This document shows positions 1 through 62,562 of a DNA stretch of 64,000 nt, piece by piece; positions within the stretch are counted from its first letter, which is position 1, and each line of letters starts with the position of its first letter. The position numbers were made by a program, and so were the translations under genes. The notes under the pieces were generated by a model, which did not search any database, was not told the origin of the DNA, and saw only the letters and a program-made list of their open reading frames with translations. Source of the DNA: Chiloscyllium plagiosum (lineage: Eukaryota); the NCBI RefSeq assembly GCF_004010195.1, contig NC_057751.1:3783866-3847865 (forward strand), in the 5' to 3' direction.

Positions 1-121
1 GCAGGATTTGCTTCTTCTCTGTCCACTTGTCTGTGCCTGGTTATCCAGCGATATGAAGTGTGCGGGGACAAGCAGTGGACTTGATGTTGTTGTTCTGTTC
101 GCCGAGCTGGAAGTTTTTGTT

Positions 122-161
122 GGAAACGTTTCGTCCCCTGGCTAGGCGGCATCATCAGTGC
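122..161 (-). ncRNA. minimal type I hammerhead ribozyme motif
   Basis: Reverse complement reads GCA-CTGATGA-TGCCGCCTAGCCAGGGGAC-GAAA-CGTT-TCC; palindromic ACGT stem III; stem I and stem II each carry a substitution. Confidence 0.6.
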
Positions 162-265
162 TTGGGAGCCTCCTGCGAAGCGCTTCTTTGATCGGAAGCG
201 GCAGGGACAGACCACTATAAACACCGGAGGAAACATCAAAGAAGCGCTTCGCAGGAGGCTCCCAA

Positions 266-305
266 GCACTGATGATGTCGCCTAGCCAGGGGACGAAATG
301 TTTGC
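266..305 (+). ncRNA. minimal type I hammerhead ribozyme motif
   Basis: GCA-CTGATGA-T-GTCGCCTAGCCAGGGGAC-GAAA-TGTT-TGC; stem I GCA/TGC, stem II GTC..GAC, CpG-decayed stem III. Confidence 0.65.
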
Positions 306-1334
306 AACAAAAACTTCCAGCTCGGCGAACAGAACCACAGCAACGAGCACCCGAGCTACAAATCTTCGCACAAACTTTGAATAACTGTAAGTTTCAACGT
401 AATTGTGGAAAGGGATAAGGATAGTGCAGAAGTTATAAGTCTGAGTTAGGAGGATGCCAATTTCATTATCATTAGACAGAATCTGGCAAGCAATTTGCAG
501 AAAAGTCTACATTTGGAAAATGGGAGTCTTTTACATGTACTACAATGGGAGTTCAGGATCAGTTTGTTCCTCTCAGAATGCAGGGCAAGGGCATAAAGTT
601 GAGTGAACTGGGGATGTCAAGGGATAACAAGAATTTGAGAAAGAAAATGAAGGAAGCATACATTAAGTACAGAGCATTACAAAACAGGGAAGCCCTTCAT
701 AAGTCAAGAAAGCGGAGGGAGAGCGATTAAAAAAGAAATTGGAGAGGCCATAAAATATCTTTGACGGATGGGATTAAGGAAAAGCCAAAGACATTTTGTA
801 AGAATATTAACAGAAAGAGGATTACCAGAAAGAGTGGAGCCTATTAAAGACCAGAGGGGCAATCTATTTGTGGATCCAGAGGACAGAGGTGAGATCTTAA
901 ATGAATATTTCTCATCTGGATGCACAGAGGAGAAATACACTGCAGTGGCAATTTGACTTAGAATGGTGATATTCTGGAACAGGTTATGATTAATAAGGAG
1001 TAGATATGAGATGCTTTAGTGGGCATGAAGGTGCATAAATCCATTGGGCCAGAACAAATGCATCCCAGGCTGTTTTGGAGACAAAAGAGGAGATTGCTGG
1101 GAACCTGGCAGAGATACTTAAGACTTCAATGGCCGCAGGTGAAGTGCCAGATGATTGAACAACTACTAATTTGGTTTCTTTGTTTCAGAACGGCATCAAG
1201 GAAAGGCCAGGTAATCCCAGACTAGTTAGTCTGATGTCAGTGGTTGGGAAATTATTGATAAAAATTCTGAGGGAGAGGAAGGGAAATCTGAGCTGATTGA
1301 TTTGAGTTTTTGAAATGGCAACTGCATATACAAG

Positions 1335-4932: not shown

Positions 4933-5140
4933 CTCCGACCTATCACCCTCCCCTTGACCTCTTTCCACCTATCCCATTTCCCACGCCCCTCCTCCAAGTC
5001 CCTCCTCCCTACCTTTTATCTTCTCCTGCTGAACGCTCTCTGCTCATTCCTGAAGTAGGGCCTGTGCCCGAAACGTCGAATCTCCTGTTTCCTGGATGCT
5101 GCCTGACCTGCTGTGCTGTTCCAGCAATAAAGTTTCAACA
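4933..5140 (+). mobile_element. Penelope-like element 3' terminus (family A) with HHR motif at 5046-5081
   Basis: ATTC-CTGAAGTA-GGGC CTGT GCCC-GAAA-CGTC-GAAT followed by GGATGCTGCCTGACCTGCTG and AATAAA; one core substitution. Confidence 0.8.
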
Positions 5141-9985: not shown

Positions 9986-10140
9986 GGAGAAAGTGAGGAC
10001 TGCTGATGCTGGAGGTCAGCGTTGAAAAGCATAGCAGGTCAGGCAGCATCTGAGGAGCAGGAGAATTGACGTTTCAGGCATAAACCCTTCATCAGATAGG
10101 GGAGGGTGGTGTATGGGGATGGGGCTGGGGAGAAAGTAGT
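9986..10140 (-). mobile_element. Penelope-like terminus (family A) with HHR motif at ~10064-10097
   Basis: Reverse complement has CTGATGA-AGGGTTTATGCCT-GAAACGTC; shares the AAAGTGAGGACTGC.GATGCTGGAG end with 29861 and 39455. Confidence 0.8.
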
Positions 10141-10159
10141 CTTCTTGACCAAGTATCAA

Positions 10160-10272
10160 TTCTAACAAAGGATGACTGTACTTCAAACATTCACAGTCTT
10201 TCTCTCTGCAGATGCTGCCAGGCTTTGAGTTTCTCCAGCACTTTTGTTTTCGTTTCAGATTTCTAGCATCTT
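10160..10272 (+). mobile_element. decayed Penelope-like terminus
   Basis: CTCTGCAGATGCTGCC...CTCCAGCAC...TCAGATTTCTAGCATCT resembles the family A tail; HHR eroded. A similar relic lies at ~8345-8430. Confidence 0.5.
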
Positions 10273-10440
10273 AGTTTTTATCATTTGCACCAACAAAGAA
10301 TCTTCTTCGAAGTTCATAAGATATAGGAACATAATTAGACCATTCAGTGCAGCGAGTCTGCTCCGCTATCCAATCATGGCTGATACTTGACGCAATGTGA
10401 CTGCAACTATTTATCTCAGTGCCACCATGGTCATATCTAG

Positions 10441-27470: not shown

Positions 27471-27808
27471 TTAAAAATCACACAACACCAGGTTATAATT
27501 CACAGGTTTATTTGGAAGCACTAGCTTTCAGAGCACTACTCCTTCATCAGGTGGTTGTGGAGTATGAGATCGTAAGACACAGAATTTATAACGAACATTT
27601 ACAGTGTGATGTAACTGAAATTATGTATTGAAACAGACTTGGGATTGTTTGTTAAATCTCTCATCTTTTAGAATGAACATGTTGGTTTCAGTTCTTTCAT
27701 ATGTAAATTGTCGAACTTTTTTAAAGTTACATTCTCAAGTGAACTTTAACAATTTGTGTCATGTACACATACACACACTCTCCCATAGACACTCATGAAC
27801 ACCTCCCG

Positions 27809-28565: not shown

Positions 28566-29860
28566 TAAGGCTCCAGATGGTACCAAGTTGGTTGGAAGGG
28601 TGAACTGTGACCAAGAGATTCTTCAGCATGATCTGGGCAGGTTGGGTGAGTGGGCAAATCACTCCCTGAATGGCTGCAACTTGGGAGAGGAGAGTGTGTA
28701 ATGGGACCTGGGTGTCCTTGTGCACCAGTAGCTGAAAGCAAGCATGCAGGTGCAGCAGGCGGTAAAGAAGGCAAATGGTACATTGGCCTTCATTGTGAGA
28801 GGTTTCAAGTACAGGAGCAGGGAGATGTTGTTGCAGTTATACAGGGCCCTGGTGAGGCCACACCCAGAATATTGTGGGCAGTTTTGGTGTCCATTTCTGA
28901 GGAATTCATTTTGTAACCAAAAATGAGGAAGGCAGATTCGAAGTCAGCAAATGTGACACCAATGCTTAAAAAGGACAGTCGACAGAAGATGGGGAATTAT
29001 CGACCAGTTAGCTTAATTTCTGTAGTGGGGAAGTGGCTTCTATCAACGCAGCCAGATAGAAATTGTCCTGTTGAGCAGATACAGCATGGGTTCATGAAGG
29101 GCAGGTCACGCTTAACTAATCTACTGGAATTTTATGATAACGTTAGAAGCACATGGACAATGGGGACCCAGTAGATGCGGTGTATTTAAATTTCCAAAAT
29201 GCATTCAACAAGGTGCTGCACAAAAGACTGCTGCATAAGCTAAAGTCGCAAAGGTATTACGGGTAATGTATTCACATGGATAGAGGATTGGTTAACTAAT
29301 AAGAAGCAAAGAGTGAGGATAAATGAATGCTTTTCTGGTTGGCAATCAGTGACTAGTGGTGTGCCTCAGGGATCAGTGTTGGGACCACAATTACTTGGAG
29401 CTAGGGACCATGTGTGTCAAAGTTTTGGATGACACTAAGATGAGTGGTACAGCAAAGTGTGCAGAGGACTGTGAAACTTTGCAGAGGAACATGAATAGTT
29501 TAAGTGAGTGGGCAAAGGTCTGGCAGATGGAGTACAATTTTAATCAATGTGAAGTCATCCATTTTGGTAGGAATAACAGTAAAAAGGACTATTACTTGAA
29601 ATTGCAGCATGCTGTTCTGCAGAGGGACCTGAGTGTCTCTGTACATGAATCACAGAAGTTTGGTCTGCAGGTGCAACAGGTAATGAAGAAGATAAATGGA
29701 AATTTGTCTTTCATTATTAAAGGGATTGAGTTTAAAAGCAGGGAGGTTACGTTGCAGCTATATAGAGAGCTGGTGAGGCCACACCTGGAGTACTGCGTGC
29801 AGGTTTGGTCTCTTTTCTTGAGAAAGGATGTACTGGCACTAGTGGGGTACAGAAGAGGTA

Positions 29861-29989
29861 GGAGAAAGTGAGGACTGCAGATGCTGGAGATCAGAGCTGG
29901 AAATGTGTTGCTGGAAAAGCGCAGCAGGTCAGGCAGCAATCAAGGAGCAGGAGAATCGACGTTTTGGGCATGAGCCCTTCTTCAGGAAT
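29861..29989 (-). mobile_element. 129-bp Penelope-like terminus (family A) with HHR at 29954-29989
   Basis: Reverse complement ATTC-CTGAAGA-A-GGGC TCAT GCCC-AAAA-CGTC-GATT (G12 lost by CpG decay); 4-bp duplication GGTA; splits the CR1 RT. Confidence 0.85.
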
Positions 29990-30896
29990 GGTACACTAGA
30001 TTGATTCTGGAGTTGAGGGGGTTGGCTTATGAGGAGAGACTGAGCAGACTGAGGAGACTGGGAATATATTCATTGGAATTTCAAAGAATGAAGGGGGATC
30101 TCACAGAAACATATAAAATAATGAAGGGAATAGATAAGATAGATGTAGAGAAGATGTTTCCACAGGCACGTGAAATTAGGACAAGAGGGCATAGCCTCAA
30201 AATTAGGGGGAGCAAATTTAGGAACAAATTGAGGAGGAACTTCTTCACCCAAAGGGTTGTGAATCTATGGAATTCCCTGCCAAGTGAAGTGGTTGGGGCT
30301 TTCTCGGTACATGTTTTGAAAGTTAAGATAGATAATTCTTTTAACAGTGAAGAAATTAAGGGTTTTCGTGAGAGGGTAGGTAAGTGGAGCTGAGGCCACA
30401 AAAAGATCAGTCATAAACTTATTGAATGCTGGAGTAGGCTCAAAGGGCCAGATGACGTACTCCTGCTCTGAGTTCTTATGTTCTTGCTTTGGAGGGAGTG
30501 CAATGAAAGCTTACCAGGCTGTTTCCAGGGATGGCAGGACAGCCGTATGAGGAGAGATTGACAAGGTTGGGATTGTTATCACTGGAGTTTAGATGAATGA
30601 GAGGGATTTCATTAAGACCTGTAAGATTCTAACAGGACTAAGACATAATATACACGGGGGGATGTTCCCTCCAGAACCAGGGGTCACAATCTGAGGATTT
30701 GGGGTAGACCAATTCGAACAGAGATGAGGAGACACTTCTTCACTCAAAGAGTGGTAAGCTTGTGGAATACATTACCACAGGAAGCAGTTGATGCCAAAAC
30801 ACTGAATGCATTCAAGAGGTGGCTAGGTACAGCACTTGGGGTGAATGGGATCAAACGTTATGGGAAGAAAGCAAGATTAGGCTATTGAGTTGGGTA

Positions 30897-31280
30897 GGTA
30901 AAAACAATGACTGCAGATGCTGGAAACCAGATTCTGGATCAGTGGTGCTGGAAGAGCACAGCAATTCAGGCAGCATCCGAGGACAGGCAAAATCGACGTT
31001 TCGGGCAAAAGCCCTTCATCAGGAATAAAGGCAGAGAGCCTGAAGCGTGGAGACAAGTCCGGACAGGTCAGGGGATCGAGTTTCTGGAGGTTAGAGGCTA
31101 GGATGGGGTGGGGGAAGGGGAAATGAGGAAGCTGTTGAAGTCCACATTGATGCCCTGGGGTTGAAGTGTTCCGAGGCGGAAGATGAGGCGTTCTTCCTCC
31201 AGGCGTCTGGTGGTGAGGGAGCGGCGGTGGAGGAGGCCCAGCACCTCCATATCCTCGGCAGAGTGGGAGGGGGAGTTGAA
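30897..31280 (-). mobile_element. Penelope-like element 3' end: GIY-YIG C-terminus, HHR and tail, with 13-bp TSD
   Basis: Minus strand from 31280 translates FNSPSHSAEDMEVLGLLHRRSLTTRRLEEERLIFRLGTLQPQGINVDFNSF; TSD ATTGAGTTGGGTA at 30884-30896 / 31281-31293. Confidence 0.9.
30991..31026 (-). ncRNA. minimal type I hammerhead ribozyme, intact catalytic core
   Basis: ATTC-CTGATGA-A-GGGC TTTT GCCC-GAAA-CGTC-GATT; predicted GUC cleavage triplet. Confidence 0.8.
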
Positions 31281-31569
31281 ATTGAGTTGGGTAATCAGCC
31301 TTGATCGTGATGAATGGTGGAGCAGGCTCGAAGGACCAAATGGCGCCTCCTGCTCCTATCTTCTATGTTTCAATGTTTTTCCTGTTGTGTACTTTCATGC
31401 AAAAAGAATGGAAAATGTGAACGCTTATGTTCATTTCTTCAATGTTAACCATTGCCTATTCATTGTCATTCCTTTTACCAACGCTACCCAGAACATTGCA
31501 GCTAACTCAACCCACACGTTTCGTTGTTTCCTTTACTTCGATTTAAGATCCCGAGTTTTGGATTGGACT

Positions 31570-31660
31570 ACTGAATGGTCCTGCCAGAAACATCGATTCC
31601 ATTGCTCCTCAGATGCTGGTTGACCTGTTGTGCTTTTTCCAGAACCACTTTATCAACTCT
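31570..31660 (+). mobile_element. decayed family A PLE terminus
   Basis: GAAACATCGATT...CAGATGCTGGTTGACCTGTTGTGCTTTTTCCAG. Confidence 0.6.
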
Positions 31661-31849
31661 ACTTCACTACTATCCAAGTGAAGAATTCTATCATGTAATG
31701 ATTACTTTTTCCTCAAGTATTTCTCATAACAAGATTATTAATTATGTTATTCCATTGCATAAAAGCAGTCTGGGTTCACCTAATCCCTGGCTGGTTGCTT
31801 CCAGAGTCTCGAAATTCATCCATCACCATATTTTTGCTCATATTGTTTG

Positions 31850-34300
31850 CCAGCCTCTATGTCAATTAAAGACAAATCTTCTTCTGATCAAGACGAACAT
31901 TCCTTTAGTCATCCTGATGGCCTTGTTACACCTGCATATTGGCCTTCAGTGAGTTAGCAACAGGACACCTAGTCCCTTTGAACATCAAACTTCCAAATTT
32001 CTTACCATTTAAGGAATAATCTGCACATCTGTTTTGTCTTCCCAAGTGGATGGTTTCACGTTTCCCCATGAAATTCCAATTCCATTTTCCTGCCAATTCA
32101 CAATTCGTCCTGAAGCTGCTTTACATCTTCAACACAACACACACTACCACTTCGATTTGTATTATTTGCAAATTCAGAAGTATTACACTTGGTCCCCACC
32201 TCCAAATCATTCCAAATATTATGAACAGTTGAAGCCTGAGCACTGATCTTGCAATACTCCATTTGTCATAGCCTGCCTACTCAGAAAGGACTCATTTATT
32301 CCTACTATCTGTTAACCAACCATTAATTGATGCAAAGTACATTATCTCCATTTCCATGTGCTTTAATCTTGCGCAAATGTCTCCTGTGGTGGACTTTATT
32401 GCAAAGCCTTCTGGTAATCTAAGTATAGTCCATCCACTGGCTCTCCTTCACAAATCTTGTTCATAACATCCTCAAAAAACTCCATCAAGTTCATTAAACG
32501 CAATTTCCAATCCATAAATCTATGCTGACTGTGCCCGATCAGATCACTTCCATCCAAGTGTCTATGCATCACATCCTTTCGAATAATTGTCCAGCACTTT
32601 TCCTACAACTGATCTATAACAAACAGGTATTCAGTTCCCTGTTTGTTCCCTTTGCTCCTTTCTTAGATAGTGGAGTTACATTTATAACCATTCAATCTTT
32701 AGGTATCATTCAGAAATCTATAGAATTTTGGAAAATAATCATGAATGCATCAACAATCTCAGCAGCCACTATTTTCAAAGCTCTGAGATGCAGACCATCA
32801 GGTCCTCAGGATTTATCAACTTTCAAGCCAGTACAGTCAGTACAATCGTCTTACTAATTTCATGTAAGATCTGTCTGCCCAGCAACTTCAATCTATAGTT
32901 CTGAGAGATTCCTTGTGCCTTTCTCAGTGGAAACACATAAAGTAATGAGTTAACTTCTCTATTCTGCATTATAAATACTCCTGATTTTGCTTGCAATGAA
33001 CTGACATTCATTTTAACCAAACTTTTAAAAACTACAGAAACTTCGTCAGTTCATTTTTAAGTTTTTTTTAACTAATTGTATTCATATTCCATTCATCTTT
33101 CTTTTCCAGTTTCTTGGCCCTTCTGGGTATTTTAAAACCTGAAACCTTCAGAAGTCAGCTCTTTCTGGCATCTTCAAAGGCTTTGACATTTCATCATACA
33201 CAATCCGAAACTTCCTTTTTTTGGTCACGGGTGACTGATTTCTTTTGAGTTTCGGACCTTGAAGGAAATCATAATTGCTGTAAAGCACATAACAGTTATT
33301 TCAAAACTATCCATTGCCTTTTCAATGTATTTTCACAATCTACCTCACCCAAAATTGTACCTCGGGCCTTTATAATTCCTTGTTCAAATTTAACACACTT
33401 CCTTCACAATGAACCACCTCACTTTCAAAGGGTAAGTAAAATGCTGTCATAATGTGGGCACTCATCGCTCAACGCTGTCAGATTTCAGAGCAGAATTAAA
33501 TCATTCAGTCCATTGAGTCTGCTGCACCATTTGATCATGACTGCCATGTTTTTCAACTCCATTCTGCTGCCTTTCCTTGTAACCCTTGATCGCCTTACTA
33601 ATCAAGAACCTATCTCTCTCGATCATAAATACACTCAATGACTTGGCCTCCACAGCCCTCTGCAGCAATGAGTTCCACAGACCGACCACCCTCTGGCTGA
33701 AGAATTTTCCCCAAATCTCAGTTCTAAAGAGTCATCCCTTCACTCTGAGGGTATGCCCTCAAGTCCTCGTCTCTCTGTGAGTGGAAACATTTTGTCTACA
33801 TCCACTATCTCGGCCTCTCAGTATTCTGTAAATTTTAGTGAAATTCCCTCTCATCCTTCTGAACTCCAATGAGTACACACCCAGAGTCCTCAACCGCTCC
33901 TTATATGACAAGCCTTTCATCCCTGGCATCATTCTTATAATATTCCTCTGGACTTTGTCCATTGCCAGCGTATCCTACTTTAAATAAGAGGCCCCAAAAC
34001 TGCTCACAATATTCCAAACACAGTCTGAACATGACCATATACAGCTTCAGCCATACATGTGGACTCCTATAGGTTGGACCTGAGGAGTGTTGCCAAACAA
34101 AGGGACCTATGGTGCAGATGTAGTTCCTCAACTCTAACACATAGACCATGCGCCTTGCAACTCTACATTACCTCGAACTGTTGATTTAATTTCATGTCTG
34201 ATTAACAAGACAACCCTGCCAACACGACCCCTGCCCATTTGCCTATCATTTAGATTGAATGCATGTTCTTTGATATTTAGCTCCTTTGTGAAACACTTCT
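31850..34300 (-). mobile_element. two or three decayed CR1 fragments (~31850-33450, ~33490-34050, ~34050-34300)
   Basis: Antisense CR1 signatures; ORFs 33501-34149 contain GLWNSL, YSLEFRRMRG and CLEYCEQFW. Confidence 0.75.
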
Positions 34301-35058
34301 TGCACAGTGACACCATGTTCCAATTGCCCATCCAACTTGCATTAGATAAAAAGTAAAGTTTCCTCTGCTCTGTCTCCTATCTTCCAACTGTGGAGATCTT
34401 GCTTGTGTGAGATGAGGTGAGGAGCCAATGTACATGAGTTAACATCGCATTATTATCTAATCATGCCTTTTTTGTGTGCAGTTTGCTGTTTTCCGAGGCA
34501 CTGGAGAGAAACTGGATGGTGACAACGCCGAACATGAAAAGCTGAGCAGGTACCTGGTGACTGCAGCCTGCTGGTGTCTTTTCCAGGCATCCACCTTGGT
34601 GAACATTCCCCAACATCTCAGGAGATACTCATGCACAGCAAACGCCTGTACTCTCCACTATGGATGTTGGCAATAGCATAGCATCAGACTCGCCACATCA
34701 TCATGGAACATTTGGGACTCACCACTTGGAGACTCACAGTTCCTGTGCCTTTCCTTTCCTTGTCTTTTAGCACAGAAAGATAGCCATGCACTTTGTCATG
34801 TTCCGCAGCGATGCACAATCAAAGCAAACTACAATCAGTGACTGAGCTGGGCTAACATCAGTCAGGAAAGGAGGTGTGTGAGTAAATAGGAAGCAGAGAG
34901 AGCAGGAAGGGCAATGGTGCATGTGTGCCATTGAAGGAAGATGTCACAGGAAATATTGAAAATGATAGATCATGTGCTTGGATGGGAAGTGTGTGCACTG
35001 GCAGAGCTAGGGTGACTAAAGTGGCAAAGTTGAGATGCTGGCACGTACACTTGCGACA

Positions 35059-35187
35059 GTGATGAAGGGCTTTTGCCTGAAATGTCGATTTTCCTCTCCT
35101 CGGATGTTGCCTGACTTGCTGTGCTTTTCTAGCACCATTCTGATCTTGACTCTGATCTCCAGCATCTGCAGTACTCACTTTCGCCTA
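35059..35187 (+). mobile_element. ~130-bp family A PLE terminus starting at the HHR core
   Basis: TGATGAAGGGCTTTTGCCTGAAATGTCGATT...CTCCAGCATCTGCAGTACTCACTTTC. Confidence 0.8.
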
Positions 35188-35481
35188 CTTGCAACACTGT
35201 TGCCTGTTCCTCCAAATCATTGACATCTCATTTATCTGGGTGGCTACTTGAGATCAGGTTTGCATTTTTTTGACATTGTGCACAGCTGAATTTTACTTAT
35301 GATATCTGGACTGTGAATGCCAGAAGGTCCCAATAGTATTTTGCTGGTGGTGAGTCCCACTGCCACACTGCAAAGGCATGGTGCATACTTCATGAGATGA
35401 GCATTGTAAAATTGTCTGATGCAAGTTTCTTGGGCTCACAAAGTGAAACCTCTGTGAATCTCCCTGAAATTGACATTTAGT

Positions 35482-35592
35482 GTCATAGAGTCATCGAAAC
35501 GAACAGCACGGAAACAGACTCTTCAGTCCAACTCGTCCATGCCGACCAGATATCCTAACCTAATTTCATCCCATTTGCCGGCACTTGGCCTT
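35482..35592 (-). mobile_element. short HER1-like CR1 3' tail
   Basis: GTCATAGAGTCAT...CTTCAGTCCAACTCGTCCATGCCGACCAGATATCC. Confidence 0.8.
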
Positions 35593-38454
35593 TTTCAATG
35601 GGTGCTGAATAGTATGCCCCGTACAACTGCAGTGAATAAGCTCATTTGGCACTGTGTAAGTAGTAATTTGAAAACACATTTTTTACTTTTGTTCATCCCT
35701 GCCCTAATTTGATACATTGAGGTGATTGTAAAAACAGCATCATACAGAAATAACATCTCGCAGATTTTTGGGAAGGTTCACCCTGTTGTTTATTTGAATA
35801 TTCTTCCATGGTCTGCTTCACAGAAAATAAATCAGAAACCAGATGTGCAATCTACAATATTTCCAGCTGCTTCAGAAAAAAAATGTTTTTCATGCCAGGG
35901 AACAGTGTAAATTGCAAAATCTGCCTTGGCTGAATTTCTGCTTTGTTCCATTGCCATGCTTAAGACTACAAGCCATGCAAAACAAATGTCTGCTGCAGGT
36001 ATAAACTTGAATCTTACTGACATGACGACATAGTAACATGTCTGAAAATAATAGGTAATTAGTCAATGTTGTCTGTGTTTGCTGTCAACAACTCAGTGCA
36101 TTTTTGAATTGGTCCTTGTCGTTAGGTCTTCCTTAATTTCTTTGTACGCATCCAAATCCCCTGAATTTGGCTCCAGAAACAGCGGTTTAAGATTCCTAAT
36201 TTTTTTTCTGCACACGAATCAAAGTAAACAATATCCACACTCAGGAACTGAATTATCATTCCTTGCCCGTTGACAGTGTAAAATCATCTGGCATAGACAC
36301 AACAGGTTTTATTCTTAAAACACTCAAAACTAACCGCAGAATTTTTTTGATTTTCCAATGATATATTTTGATTTTTAAAATCTTTTATCCCACAAACCTG
36401 CCAAATAAACATTGCCTAATTACTTCCAATTAGTACTCAGTCAGATAGCTATCAATACTGTCCCCATCGGCACAAATGGATCAGAACGCAAGAAAGCCAG
36501 AATTTAGAGGAACCAATTGTTAGAACATTAGGATTTCAAAATATAGTTAAGTCCCATCATTTCACACTTCTCTTTTTATGCCCTGTAAAATGATGATGAC
36601 TTGTCAGTCCATTTTCCCACTACAATAAAGCACTTTAAACTAATTTGCACAGACAATGATCTGATTGTTTTTAATTATAATTCAGCCAATGAAAAATTGA
36701 CCATAAAGAAATACTGTGCAACATTAGGTCAAGCTAAAATGTTTATAAAACTGAAACAACATCATTCATTTCATAGGTTTAAACTAGCTTGATCTGAATT
36801 CTTCAACAGGCACTCTTCATTCATTTGAAGATACCAAGAACAGGCATGTGCAAGAAGAACAAAAATCAAAAACCTAAAATGGGGTGCTCAATCAGGCTCC
36901 TGATATGGGGCTTGACCAATCACAAAATCTGGGAGAAGGAAAATTTAAGGCAGGGTCCAATTTAGGTTTGGGGAATAAAACGACATCACCGATACACAGG
37001 AGTACACTTGCTGATGACTACCACAACATTCACAGAAGCTTCAGACTCTGCAATTGTACACATTTTATTGGCTGAATCTAATGATGAAACTAGGATGGAA
37101 GGTAATGTTTCACGGAAGATCATGGCAGCAGTTTCAACAGTCAAACAAAATAATTTGCTCACCAGGGGTGACCTGGTGAGCATAAATATATCTTTTAGGG
37201 AACAGCAAAACTCAGCCCAAAAATCTAAGATAGTCACCAAGGAATCTGAAAGGTAATTCACAACAAACCCCTCCACCAGTGGTAATGAGAATGAGTCATA
37301 TGAACAGCACAGTTGCATTTTGGAATGGTAATGAAAACAAGGGAGGAGAAGATGTATGGTACTGATGCCAGAGTCAGAGAAGAAAAGATGGAAGGATCAA
37401 GTGCAGCATCAACTGATGCATGGACTGATTGGACTGATGACCTGCTTCTGTGCCAGATATCCGATGTCTTATTCATAATGCATATATTTCACAATTCTCA
37501 TTTGTACACCAAGGGAGAAAGATTGACTTGCATCATGTCACTTCCAGAAGCATTAAGCATACTATATTAATTTCTTCACATAGTGCTGCAGATATTACCT
37601 AAAAGGCCCAATTGAGTTTCATCAGTTATTCCAATGAGGATGACCTGTGGCATTGCCAACCCACCAAGCCGATGGACAATCAAGACAGTCCTCTATTACT
37701 CAAAAATGACATATGGAATAATTTCTTAAGATTTTGGATAGAAACTGGTCTTGTGTGAAAACCCAACAGGCAATATTACATTTCTGCTTCATGTCTTCCA
37801 CAGTTCGAATGTTTTTTACAGTTGGTGACAATGGGTTGTACAGTGGCTAACTGATGTGCTTGCATCCATTGAGTACTCATCCACCACCTGATTTTCTATC
37901 TATTAATATCTTCCAAAGACAAATTTCTCCAACACCTTCTTCAAGGGTTTAGTGGAGCAGGAATGTGTTGGAAGAAACTGTGAAAAATCAATTTGAAGGG
38001 CAAACGTACTCTCATCTATTGCAATAGTACATAGCATATCCTGAACATACAAATTAGAAGTAAGACCAGGCTATTTAGTCGTGGAGTCAGTCATACACCG
38101 TGAAAACAGGCCTTTTAGCCCAGATTGCCCAGGCTGATCAGATTTCCAAAACTGAACTAGTCCCATTTTCCAGCATTCAGCCCATATCCCTCTTAAACTT
38201 TCCTATCCATGAACCTGTCCAAACGTCTGTTAAATGTTGTAACAGTATCCGTCTCCACCACTTCCTCTGGAAGCTCATTTCATACACACCCTCAGTGTGA
38301 AAAAGGTGCCCTTCAGGTCTCTTTTAAATCTTTCCCCTTTCACATTTACACCATGCCTCTAGTTTGGGACTCCCATACCCTGCGGAAAGACCTTGGCTAT
38401 TCACCTTATTTTTGACCCTCATGATTTTATACCTCTCTAAGGTCACTCCCTCAG

Positions 38455-38660
38455 TCATTGAGTGTGGTGCTGGAAAAGCACAGCTGGTCAGGCAGCATCC
38501 AAGGAGTAGAAGAGTCAATGTTTTGGGCATACACTCTTCATCAGGAATGAGCGTGAAACATCAACTCTCCTGCTCCTCGGATGCTGTCTGACCAGCTGTG
38601 CTTTTCCAGCACCACACTCTTCAAATCTGATCTCCAGCATCTGCAGTCCTCACTCTCTCC
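38455..38660. mobile_element. fold-back PLE terminus (arms ~38460-38524 / 38556-38619)
   Basis: Inverted repeat of the family A tail, decayed HHR on the minus arm, ~15-bp imperfect TSD AAGGTCACTCCCTCAG / AAGGTCAGTCCTCAG. Confidence 0.85.
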
Positions 38661-39454
38661 AAGGTCAGTCCTCAGACTTTGCTCCAGGATAAAAATTCCC
38701 AGCATATCCATCCTCTCCTTAGAACTCAAACCTTCCAGTCTCAGTAATATCCTTGTTAATCTTTTTCACACCCTTACCAGTTTAATAACATCCTCCCAAC
38801 AGCAGGGTGACCATAATTGTATGCAGGTCTCCAAATGTGGCCTTACCGATGTCTTGTACAGCCATAACATGATGTACCAACTCCTGTCCTCACTGCTTTG
38901 AACGATGAAGGCAATTGTGCCAAAAGCCTTTTTCACCACGCTGTCTACCAGTGATACCACTTTCAAAGCACTGTGTACCTGCACATCTCTGTTCAACAAT
39001 GGTCCCCAGGGTTCTACCATTAACTCTGTCAGTCTGGCTCTAGTTTGTCTGACCAAAACGGGACACTTCACATTAATGGAGTCACTTGAGCCTACTATGT
39101 CACTCAGTAAGTTCATATCTGATCTAACATGTTCTTAACTCCACATTCCCACCAACTTCCGATGAGTTTTGACTCCTTGGTCAATCAAGAACCTAAGCAA
39201 TTTTGCCTTAGAGATATTGAATGAACAGAGCTTTATCAACTCATAACCCTCTCGGAGAAAATATATTTCTCCCCATTGCAGTCGCAAATAAAAGATCACT
39301 TATTTCTGAACTATATGTCCTAATTTTAGACTCTCCCAAAAGGGAAAATGCTGTTTCAACATCCACTTTGTTCAAACCTTCCAGGATCTTGTAAATCTCA
39401 AACAGATACTTCTGTCTTTATCCCTCATTTTACTAAACACACACAGATACTGAT

Positions 39455-39584
39455 GAGAGAAAGTGAGGACTGCAGATGCTGGAGATGAGAGTTGAAAAGT
39501 GCGGCACTGGAAAAGCACAGCAGGTCAGGCAGCATCCAAGGTGCAGGAGAATCAATGCTCCGGGCATAAGCCATTCATCAGGAC
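39455..39584 (-). mobile_element. ~130-bp family A PLE terminus with decayed HHR
   Basis: Same start and end as 29861-29989; reverse complement CCTGATGAATGGCTTATGCCCGGAGCATTG. Confidence 0.8.
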
Positions 39585-40094
39585 TAGGTACAGGTGAACA
39601 TATCCAACCTTTTGTTGATAATGTGCACCCTCATCCCACAAACATGGCAACTGAACCTTCTATACCAGGATTCCCAAATCTGTCTTTTCAAGATCTGTAA
39701 TATATCTTCATTTAAATATGCTTTGATAAACATCTGACTGAAAGAACAAGTTCACATGATACTTCATCTGCAATTTTTTTGACCACTGACCTAACCTATA
39801 CATATCTCTATGCAAACTCCTTTTGTCATGTTCACAGGTTATCCGATGATAAAGGTTGATAAAATTTCATGCCATTTTTCTTACTTTGTGACATATAGTC
39901 CTCTCGCCAGCAAATGAGCAACTGCCTCAGAGTTTGATCATTCCCCCATGCTGTTTTGAAGGCTCCTGACCAAGACAACTGCTCCCAAAGAACAATGCTT
40001 TGTAAGTTATTATCATGCAAGAGAAAGAGAAGCGCCAGAGGATAAAGGGAAAAGAAGTTGAAGAAGCACTTAAGGATGATGCAACCCACAAATA

Positions 40095-62418: not shown

Positions 62419-62562
62419 TTCTGGATTAGTGGTGCTGGAAGAGCACAGCAGTTTCAGGCAGCATCCGAGGAGCTGCCTGAACTGCTGATGCTCTTCCAGC
62501 ACCACTAATCCAGAATCTGGTTTCCAGCATCTGCAGTCATTGTTTTTACCTTGTTTTTACCT
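62419..62562. mobile_element. fold-back PLE tail insertion with 14-bp TSD
   Basis: 44-nt arms 62419-62462 / 62472-62515; TSD AATTAATACTTTGT at 62405-62418 / 62563-62576; same subfamily as 30897-30990. Confidence 0.9.

What the first reader, a model, noticed from the sequence alone, without database searches (positions are those of the whole stretch)
29861..39584. Recurrent ~130-bp insertions that begin at the ribozyme: possible non-autonomous retrozyme/SINE-like unit
Seen: 29861-29989, 35059-35187 and 39455-39584 are all about 130 bp. Each runs from within a few nt of CUGANGA to the same 3' end (...CCAGCATCTGCAGT.CTCACTTTC). The inverted arm at 38549 also ends there. Random 5' truncation should not give such a fixed start. 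Inference: either a discrete HHR-bounded non-coding RNA mobilised by PLE reverse transcriptase, or a strong RT stop at the HHR fold. Note that the start lies ~30 nt upstream of the predicted cleavage site, so simple self-cleavage alone does not explain it.
Basis: partly seen in the sequence, partly recalled or inferred. Interest (0 to 1): 0.75.

Follow-up and report, generated by a model that had tools for sequence, protein, structure and literature searches.

The report
Penelope start-site run-off stubs, shark
These 130-base repeats are end-pieces of Penelope-like jumping genes in a shark-type genome, and many copies begin at the same spot just before a small self-cutting-RNA motif, likely because the element's enzyme copies the first 130 bases of its own uncut RNA and runs off the start, rather than because a separate mini-element exists.

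Summary
[quoted passage not shown] Five of 11 pLTR arms in the window start within -3..+7 of one base (+1, four bases before CUGANGA). In public DNA contigs 461-578 junctions into mostly unrelated DNA sit at that edge. Three arms extend upstream, so it is a peak, not a fixed end. The window has no tandem units and no tRNA head or Pol III box pair, and the three stubs do not group as one lineage. Best reading (0.6): +1 is the PLE transcription start (Inr-like match, box conserved at -31, TATAAA before two other families' motifs). PLE RT is published to initiate internally on uncut RNA, so priming at the 5' tail would give a 130-nt run-off copy. The start site is inferred and my cap-G check was inconclusive. 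This scan reported the same pattern before, in this and other genomes, and that lead shaped my reading.

The parts
29861..29989 (-). Short pLTR stub, +1 to tail end, inserted in a CR1 LINE; hammerhead core broken (GAAA -> AAAA); predicted cut would lie between 29958 and 29957
35060..35186 (+). Short pLTR stub starting at about +5..+7; imperfect 13-bp flanking repeat 35049-35061 / 35187-35199; core broken
39455..39585 (-). Short pLTR stub starting at +1 (one mismatch) or +3; no flanking repeat found; core broken
38462..38551 (-). Tail-less arm of an inverted insertion, starts at about -2 (+1 = 38548)
38551..38660 (+). Tailed arm of the same inverted insertion, starts at about +22; the whole insertion is flanked by a ~13-17-bp duplication in a CR1 (about 38439-38456 / 38661-38677)
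30897..31281 (-). Longer copy (subfamily C): GIY-YIG ORF end, 3' UTR, box at -31 (31057-31051), +1 at 31026, intact minimal hammerhead core 31022-30995, tail; 12-bp TSD 30885-30896 / 31282-31293
4940..5132 (+). Subfamily B copy with ~100 bp of C-rich upstream UTR, TTTATCT box at -31 (5015-5021), Inr-like TCATTCC with +1 at 5046; tail-less
9986..10140 (-). A-type copy with ~45 bp of C-rich upstream sequence and an apparent internal deletion just before the core
62419..62562 (.). Inverted C-type pair lacking the hammerhead on both arms (starts +41, +50), duplicated tail end, ~14-bp TSD
31571..31660 (+). Decayed tail-less pLTR stub starting at about +5

Best explanation
The ~130-bp units are end-pieces (pLTR stubs) of several related Penelope-like retroelement subfamilies, and their shared start likely marks the 5' end of the element's own uncut RNA: the reverse transcriptase would begin inside that RNA at the tail, copy about 130 bases through the hammerhead, run off the start and be joined in as a likely dead-end insertion. 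Steps: (1) shown: the unit is the terminal repeat of an RT + GIY-YIG element and inserts with PLE-type hallmarks; (2) shown: 5' ends pile up at about -6..+7 and the copies contain the whole motif; (3) inferred: +1 is a Pol II start set by a box at -31 and an initiator; (4) published for another PLE, inferred here: RT initiates internally at the tail ends on uncleaved RNA; (5) inferred: in a pLTR-ORF-pLTR transcript the 5' tail lies only ~100-130 nt from the start, so short run-off copies, with or without the 33-35-nt tail, are a major product.
For: Link to ORF: 31101-31310 is 72% identical over 58 aa to P0001, an RT + GIY-YIG protein with a Cx4Cx2C linker. PLE hallmarks: 12-17-bp TSDs at 3 of 9 loci, plus one weaker; inverted arms; tail duplications of 33 and 35 nt in 10 contigs each and a second 3' end near 29904. 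Peak at the front edge. No long unrelated loose-end row at the predicted cut among rows shown (24 of 1176; 6 of 246). Promoter anatomy: +1 matches YYANWYY (consensus recalled) in both upstream-bearing copies that keep the junction. A TTATCT-like box lies exactly at -31 in both despite a diverged 24-nt spacer. Canonical TATAAA lies 40 and 53 bp before the core in two other PLE families in the window. Literature: internal initiation, uncut RNA as dominant template, shorter product from 5'-shortened template (PMC11167929); TSS inside the pLTR (PMC2377424; PMC8557442); TATA + Inr-like in a rotifer pLTR (PMC3846280). The stubs are not one lineage: 35060 pairs with the ORF-linked copy (92/92) and 29861 with the B copy (81/84); one clade is rejected at AU p = 0.046.
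Against: No direct TSS evidence: no pile-up of RNA starts (a poly(A) single-cell library that could hardly show one). Cap-G not shown: among listed joints resuming at +1 or +2 the preceding base is G in 3 of 7 (3 of 3, 0 of 4), and no window copy shows a clear extra G. The loose-end consensus begins with templated upstream letters and the row for exactly +1 was not among the 6 shown, so many ends may lie a few bases upstream of +1. The -31 box of subfamilies B and C is not a canonical TATA, and n = 2. Copies of other subfamilies also clip at this spot because the reference diverges upstream (roughly 10-25% of contigs and 35-45% of RNA reads continue into templated sequence; rough mixture estimate). 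Contig counts under-count young collapsed copies: summed DNA depth over the motif is only 3.1 times that over the ORF end, and the C tail 1.2 times (RNA reads 12 and 4.1 times). I could not show the tail running into an ORF start in a master element. The one short arm of family E starts ~20 bp after its TATAAA, earlier than a start site would predict.
Confidence: 0.6

Rival explanations
1. Non-autonomous Pol II mini-element: stubs keep the initiator and an internal downstream promoter element, are transcribed on their own from +1 and are re-copied by PLE RT in trans (SINE-like). Compatible with the same start point.
For: Stubs are abundant (at least 3,537 contigs with unique 3' junctions in X1). 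D. virilis Penelope has an internal promoter with DPE RGACGTGY, and the unit has ACGT at +28..+31. Putatively non-autonomous PLE derivatives exist (MRC1; PMC8557442 passage). RNA reads over the motif are 12 times those over the ORF end.
Against: The three stubs do not form one clade (AU p = 0.046, 8 short rows, borderline). No tRNA head, and no A box with a weak B-box match in 1 of 4 units. Stubs lose the -31 box. In PAc the RT needs RNA downstream of its initiation site, which a stub would lack. RNA reads lie on both strands, as read-through would.
Confidence: 0.12
2. DNA-level boundary: the 5' end is set by the element's GIY-YIG endonuclease cutting the intermediate at the ATT at +1, or by junction annealing that favours this AT-containing edge over the C-rich sequence upstream.
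For: PAc endonuclease prefers 5'-ATT-3' and cuts its own ORF-pLTR junction; +1 begins ATT. The 35060 junction shows microhomology with its target. Ends seem spread over several bases.
Against: PAc is a different clade. Does not explain the box conserved at -31. Other ATT motifs in the unit are not listed as end peaks (tables truncated).
Confidence: 0.11
3. Ordinary variable 5' truncation; the peak is mostly an artefact of homology ending where subfamilies diverge upstream of the conserved motif.
For: 3 of 11 arms extend upstream and 3 start inside. ORF-end depth in DNA contigs is about a third of motif depth. Clipping lumps subfamilies.
Against: Loose ends at the edge are long and as unlike each other as pure flanks (0.32 vs 0.33-0.35). 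29861 and the 38.5-kb insertion sit in CR1 copies that rejoin across them. No comparable long unrelated row was listed in 255 bp upstream (24 of 1176 rows shown).
Confidence: 0.08
4. RT stops at the hammerhead fold or at a protein bound to it.
For: +1 coincides with the 5' strand of stem I. The PAc hammerhead is protein-assisted.
Against: Polarity: a structural stop leaves ends at the 3' foot (+33 or later), but the stubs include the whole motif. The fold is weak: z = -2.1 for the intact copy, -0.9 to +0.2 for the three stubs.
Confidence: 0.06
5. Non-LTR retrozyme: tandem hammerhead units cut to monomers, circularised and reinserted.
For: Retrozymes are proposed to derive from pLTRs and have monomeric genomic copies (bioRxiv 2026.07.22.740005). 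A few head-to-tail joints exist (133-134 bp, 2 + 1 contigs; one with 7 extra letters at depth 51), and one tail-to-+33 joint at depth 135.
Against: No tandem unit in 64 kb. Listed head-to-tail joints are at or near single-locus depth against thousands of unique junctions. Units start at +1, not at the cut. The motif is the minimal PLE type, not the canonical type of the described retrozymes.
Confidence: 0.03

Closest known systems
Minimal hammerheads in pLTRs of metazoan PLEs (Cervera & De la Pena 2014, PMC4209133; parts 1-2 of 4 read)
   Same: Minimal type I motif with an extra base before stem II and a palindromic, loop-less stem III; most motifs are dispersed single copies ascribed to truncated PLEs.
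   Different: The parts read do not describe a pile-up of 5' ends at the motif's front edge and propose cleavage and circularisation, which these ends do not record.
PAc Poseidon element of Anolis (Frangieh et al. 2024, PMC11167929; parts 1-2 of 4 read, 3 supplementary text files searched)
   Same: Internal RT initiation at two sites bounding the tail; uncut RNA as template; product length set by the template's 5' end.
   Different: In vitro and a different clade. Genomic 5' ends and the TSS are not mapped in the parts read. The shark stubs would be the in vivo run-off product. Figure-only supplements were not visible.
D. virilis Penelope and Chlamys-3 promoters (PMC2377424 sections 14 and 18; PMC8557442 passages)
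   Same: TSS lies inside the pLTR; partial tandems, inverted 5' copies and a 30-40-bp tail.
   Different: Penelope has a TATA-less internal promoter and an intron between start and hammerhead; here the motif would be the first ~37 nt of the RNA, behind an upstream box.
Non-LTR retrozymes (PMC7229834 passages; bioRxiv 10.64898/2026.07.22.740005 parts 1-3 of 5; its supplements are closed)
   Same: Short, non-coding, type I hammerhead, pLTR-related, with monomeric genomic copies.
   Different: Defined by tandem units and circular RNAs; here dispersed singles that start 32 nt before the cut and end at the PLE tail.
Full-length L1 insertions with an extra 5' G (PMC11702581 passages)
   Same: Precedent that RT run-off at a capped 5' end leaves a sharp end with an extra G.
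   Different: L1 must copy ~6 kb from the 3' end to get there; a PLE priming internally would need ~130 nt. The G was not shown here.

Membership tests
EN+ Penelope-like element pLTR (Neptune/Nematis type) | Terminal repeat attached to an RT + C-terminal GIY-YIG ORF | tested here: met
   Direct for subfamily C (Pfam GIY-YIG E 2.5e-4, just under cut-off, and RVT_1 E 0.008 on P0001). The three stubs are linked by 71-80% identity to that copy.
EN+ Penelope-like element pLTR (Neptune/Nematis type) | Minimal hammerhead in the pLTR | tested here: met
   Both core boxes intact in 2 of 7 copies checked (30897 and 9986 copies), broken in the three named stubs. No Rfam match at gathering score.
EN+ Penelope-like element pLTR (Neptune/Nematis type) | Optional 30-40-bp tail; inverted 5' copy; variable TSD | tested here: met
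   33/35-nt tail duplications and a second 3' end; two inverted loci; TSDs of 12-17 bp at 3 of 9 loci.
EN+ Penelope-like element pLTR (Neptune/Nematis type) | Cys zinc-finger-like linker between RT and EN (clade marker) | tested here: inconclusive
   Cx4Cx2C present in the relative P0001, but the window copy does not reach the linker; no tree against named clades was built.
Non-LTR retrozyme | Tandem units, at least two consecutive hammerheads | tested here: not met
   None in the window; rare joints genome-wide among 15 of 30 and 15 of 46 joints shown.
Non-LTR retrozyme | Monomer bounded at the self-cleavage site | tested here: not met
   0 of 11 arms start at +33; 5 start at -3..+7.
Non-LTR retrozyme | Unit-length linear and circular RNAs | not testable with these tools
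   Only poly(A) single-cell reads and RNA contigs were on offer.
SINE (Pol III type) | tRNA/5S/7SL-derived head with A and B boxes | tested here: not met
   No tRNA, no Rfam match, no A box and one weak B-box match in 4 units (box patterns recalled).
Non-autonomous PLE derivative | Stub-only lineage that propagates from stubs | tested here: inconclusive
   One clade rejected at AU p = 0.046 on 8 short rows; several stub-only lineages are not excluded.

The most novel reading that the evidence does not exclude
The 130-nt leader (start site, hammerhead, tail) is both the main product of PLE internal priming and a self-sufficient Pol II mini-element: stubs re-transcribe from their own initiator and a DPE-like signal that overlaps the ribozyme's palindromic stem III, and pair in trans with full-length PLE RNA to form the dimeric hammerhead, so that stub number would regulate cleavage of the master RNA.
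Probability: 0.08. Interest if true: 0.8.

Novelty: new member of a known kind. Interest (0 to 1): 0.4.

Why it matters
The PLE transposition cycle and the role of its hammerhead are open questions. If the run-off reading holds, thousands of genomic stubs are an in vivo record that RT primes internally on uncut RNA, they map each family's start site from DNA alone, and they place the ribozyme at the very front of the mRNA, where cutting would remove the cap. It also warns that dispersed hammerhead monomers counted as retrozyme offspring may be PLE run-off copies. The elements themselves are of a known kind. I did not find the start-site pile-up in searches (open-licence library only).

Tried and rejected
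No whole genome is held for this window, so no direct histogram. Rfam: 0 matches. Pattern scans for shark-type copies: 0 in metagenome and viral contigs. 17 metagenome and 9 genome loci from a 20-mer showed only short matches of up to 34 bp and no PLE ORF; all 26 were dropped. The search for related loci in viral contigs: 25 pattern matches, none a relative. Test that the unit encodes an ORF N-terminus: none of 269 proteins began with the translated unit; one (P0007) ends with the motif read through; the direct search gave 6 candidates, none significant: uninformative. No RNA holder listed. Run X22 laid 0 reads, no test. X21 gave no start/end pile-up. Pfam on the window's ORF fragment alone: 0. 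The first empty-site script printed no alignments and was rerun. Dimer folding of the intact motif gave a non-catalytic pairing and is uninformative. Cap-G check inconclusive (3 of 7). Rejected: strict HHR-bounded fixed unit, RT stop at the fold, retrozyme, Pol III SINE.
Full report
Observation. The three intervals are copies of one unit, two on the minus strand and one on the plus strand, 79-83% identical. I number from +1 = A of ATTC, so the core CUGANGA is +5..+11, GAAACGUC is +25..+32 and the predicted cut follows +32. They start at +1, about +5..+7 and +1 (or +3), and share the tail end. BLAST and a profile search found 11 arms of this pLTR group at 9 loci, plus one decayed arm of a further family that I left out of the count. 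Five of 11 start in -3..+7, three extend 45-255 bp upstream and three start inside. All three named stubs have a broken catalytic core; 2 of 7 copies checked keep both boxes.

What it is. The window is CR1-rich, shark-type DNA. The copy at 30897-31281 runs from a GIY-YIG ORF end through a 3' UTR into the unit and has a perfect 12-bp TSD. Its peptide is 72% identical to P0001, an RT + GIY-YIG protein named from Chiloscyllium punctatum. Inverted arms, 12-17-bp TSDs at 3 of 9 loci and an optional 33-35-nt tail match published PLE anatomy (PMC8557442 passages; PMC3846280 passages). The units are therefore pLTR stubs.

Is the start a genome-wide peak? No assembly was held, so I laid public contigs and reads on two copies. 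On 30860-31320, loose ends behind +1 numbered 561 (X1), 461 (X3) and 98 (X16) contigs, median 214-255 letters, agreement 0.32-0.35. That is the same agreement as the unique flanks at the 3' end (1209, 1259 and 1069 contigs at 29859-29861). On 29835-30015, 578 contigs clipped at -1 with agreement 0.38, a mix of flank and templated upstream sequence. No such row was listed at the predicted cut or in the 255 bp upstream. Limits: only 24 of 1176 and 6 of 246 rows were shown, by an unstated ranking; one search warned that some ends were not counted; subfamilies that continue upstream clip at the same place; contigs under-count young copies. Summed DNA depth over the motif is 3.1 times the ORF end and the C tail only 1.2 times, so many copies do carry upstream sequence. 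The peak is real but not the only end, and may be spread over about -6..+1.

Mechanism. A structural RT stop would leave ends at the 3' foot of the fold, and a retrozyme monomer would begin at +33; neither fits copies that contain the whole motif (inference from polarity). Tandem units are absent from the window. Listed head-to-tail joints are few: 2 contigs, 1 contig and one with 7 extra letters at depth 51. There is no tRNA head or A+B box pair. The stubs interleave with upstream-bearing copies of different subfamilies, and one clade is rejected, narrowly (AU p = 0.046). After a lead from earlier AI notes I tested the start-site idea. +1 matches the recalled initiator consensus YYANWYY in both copies that keep the junction, and both have a TTATCT-like box at exactly -31 across a diverged spacer. 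Two other PLE families in the window have TATAAA 40 and 53 bp before the core. Published work places the TSS in the pLTR (PMC2377424) and shows internal RT initiation at the tail on uncut RNA, with product length set by the template's 5' end (PMC11167929). Together these predict a ~130-nt (tailed) or ~95-nt (tail-less) run-off copy, which is what the window holds. Opposite-strand joints linking the tail boundary (29891-29897) to 29980-29990 show the same front edge in inverted insertions.

Against this reading. No RNA start was seen (unsuitable library). An extra G, expected from a cap (PMC11702581 passage) and claimed in earlier notes, was not shown: 3 of 7 listed joints, none clear in the window. 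The -31 box is non-canonical in these subfamilies. The tail was not shown to run into an ORF start. The PAc endonuclease prefers ATT, which is also +1..+3, so a DNA-level boundary remains possible. One joint at depth 135 links a tail end to exactly +33, so a minority of templates may be cut.

Comparison and verdict. It works like the in vitro run-off product of PAc, and it is a member of the PLE pLTR/min-HHR kind (PMC4209133). It fails two tested defining features of non-LTR retrozymes and the Pol III SINE test. The start-site pile-up was not found in searches; subscription papers, figure-only supplements and bioRxiv supplements were not visible and could describe it. The scan has reported it before in this and other genomes. 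Known kind with a useful, testable mechanistic footprint: interest 0.4; best explanation 0.6.

Noticed in passing
window 86-372: Inverted pair of a different PLE family (cores at 269+ and 158-) with canonical TATAAA at 216, 53 bp before the core; the short arm starts about 34 bp before the core.
   Followed up: partly
window about 27495-27730 (-): Another PLE family: core at 27550, TATAAA at 27590, long upstream sequence, so not bounded at the motif.
   Followed up: partly
window 10158-10290 (+): Decayed pLTR-like arm of a further family next to the 9986 copy; seems to begin just before a degenerate core.
   Followed up: no
table 5c, 29957 -> 29859: Tail end joined through 4 letters to exactly +33, the predicted cut product start, at summed depth 135 (single-locus contigs are about 5-10): a possible trace of in vivo cleavage.
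   Followed up: no
table 5c, 29988 -> 29955: Tandem duplication of the hammerhead segment (+2..+35) at depth 79: a possible natural cis dimer in a few loci.
   Followed up: no
window 31100-31280, run X21: RNA reads over the ORF end show about 2.7:1 strand bias, while reads over the motif lie on both strands; strand meaning depends on the library and was not resolved.
   Followed up: no
window 62419-62562: Fold-back insertion lacking the hammerhead on both arms, with a duplicated tail end and a ~14-bp TSD.
   Followed up: partly
window 9986-10140 (-): Apparent deletion that removes the stretch between the -31 box and the core, including the putative start site.
   Followed up: no
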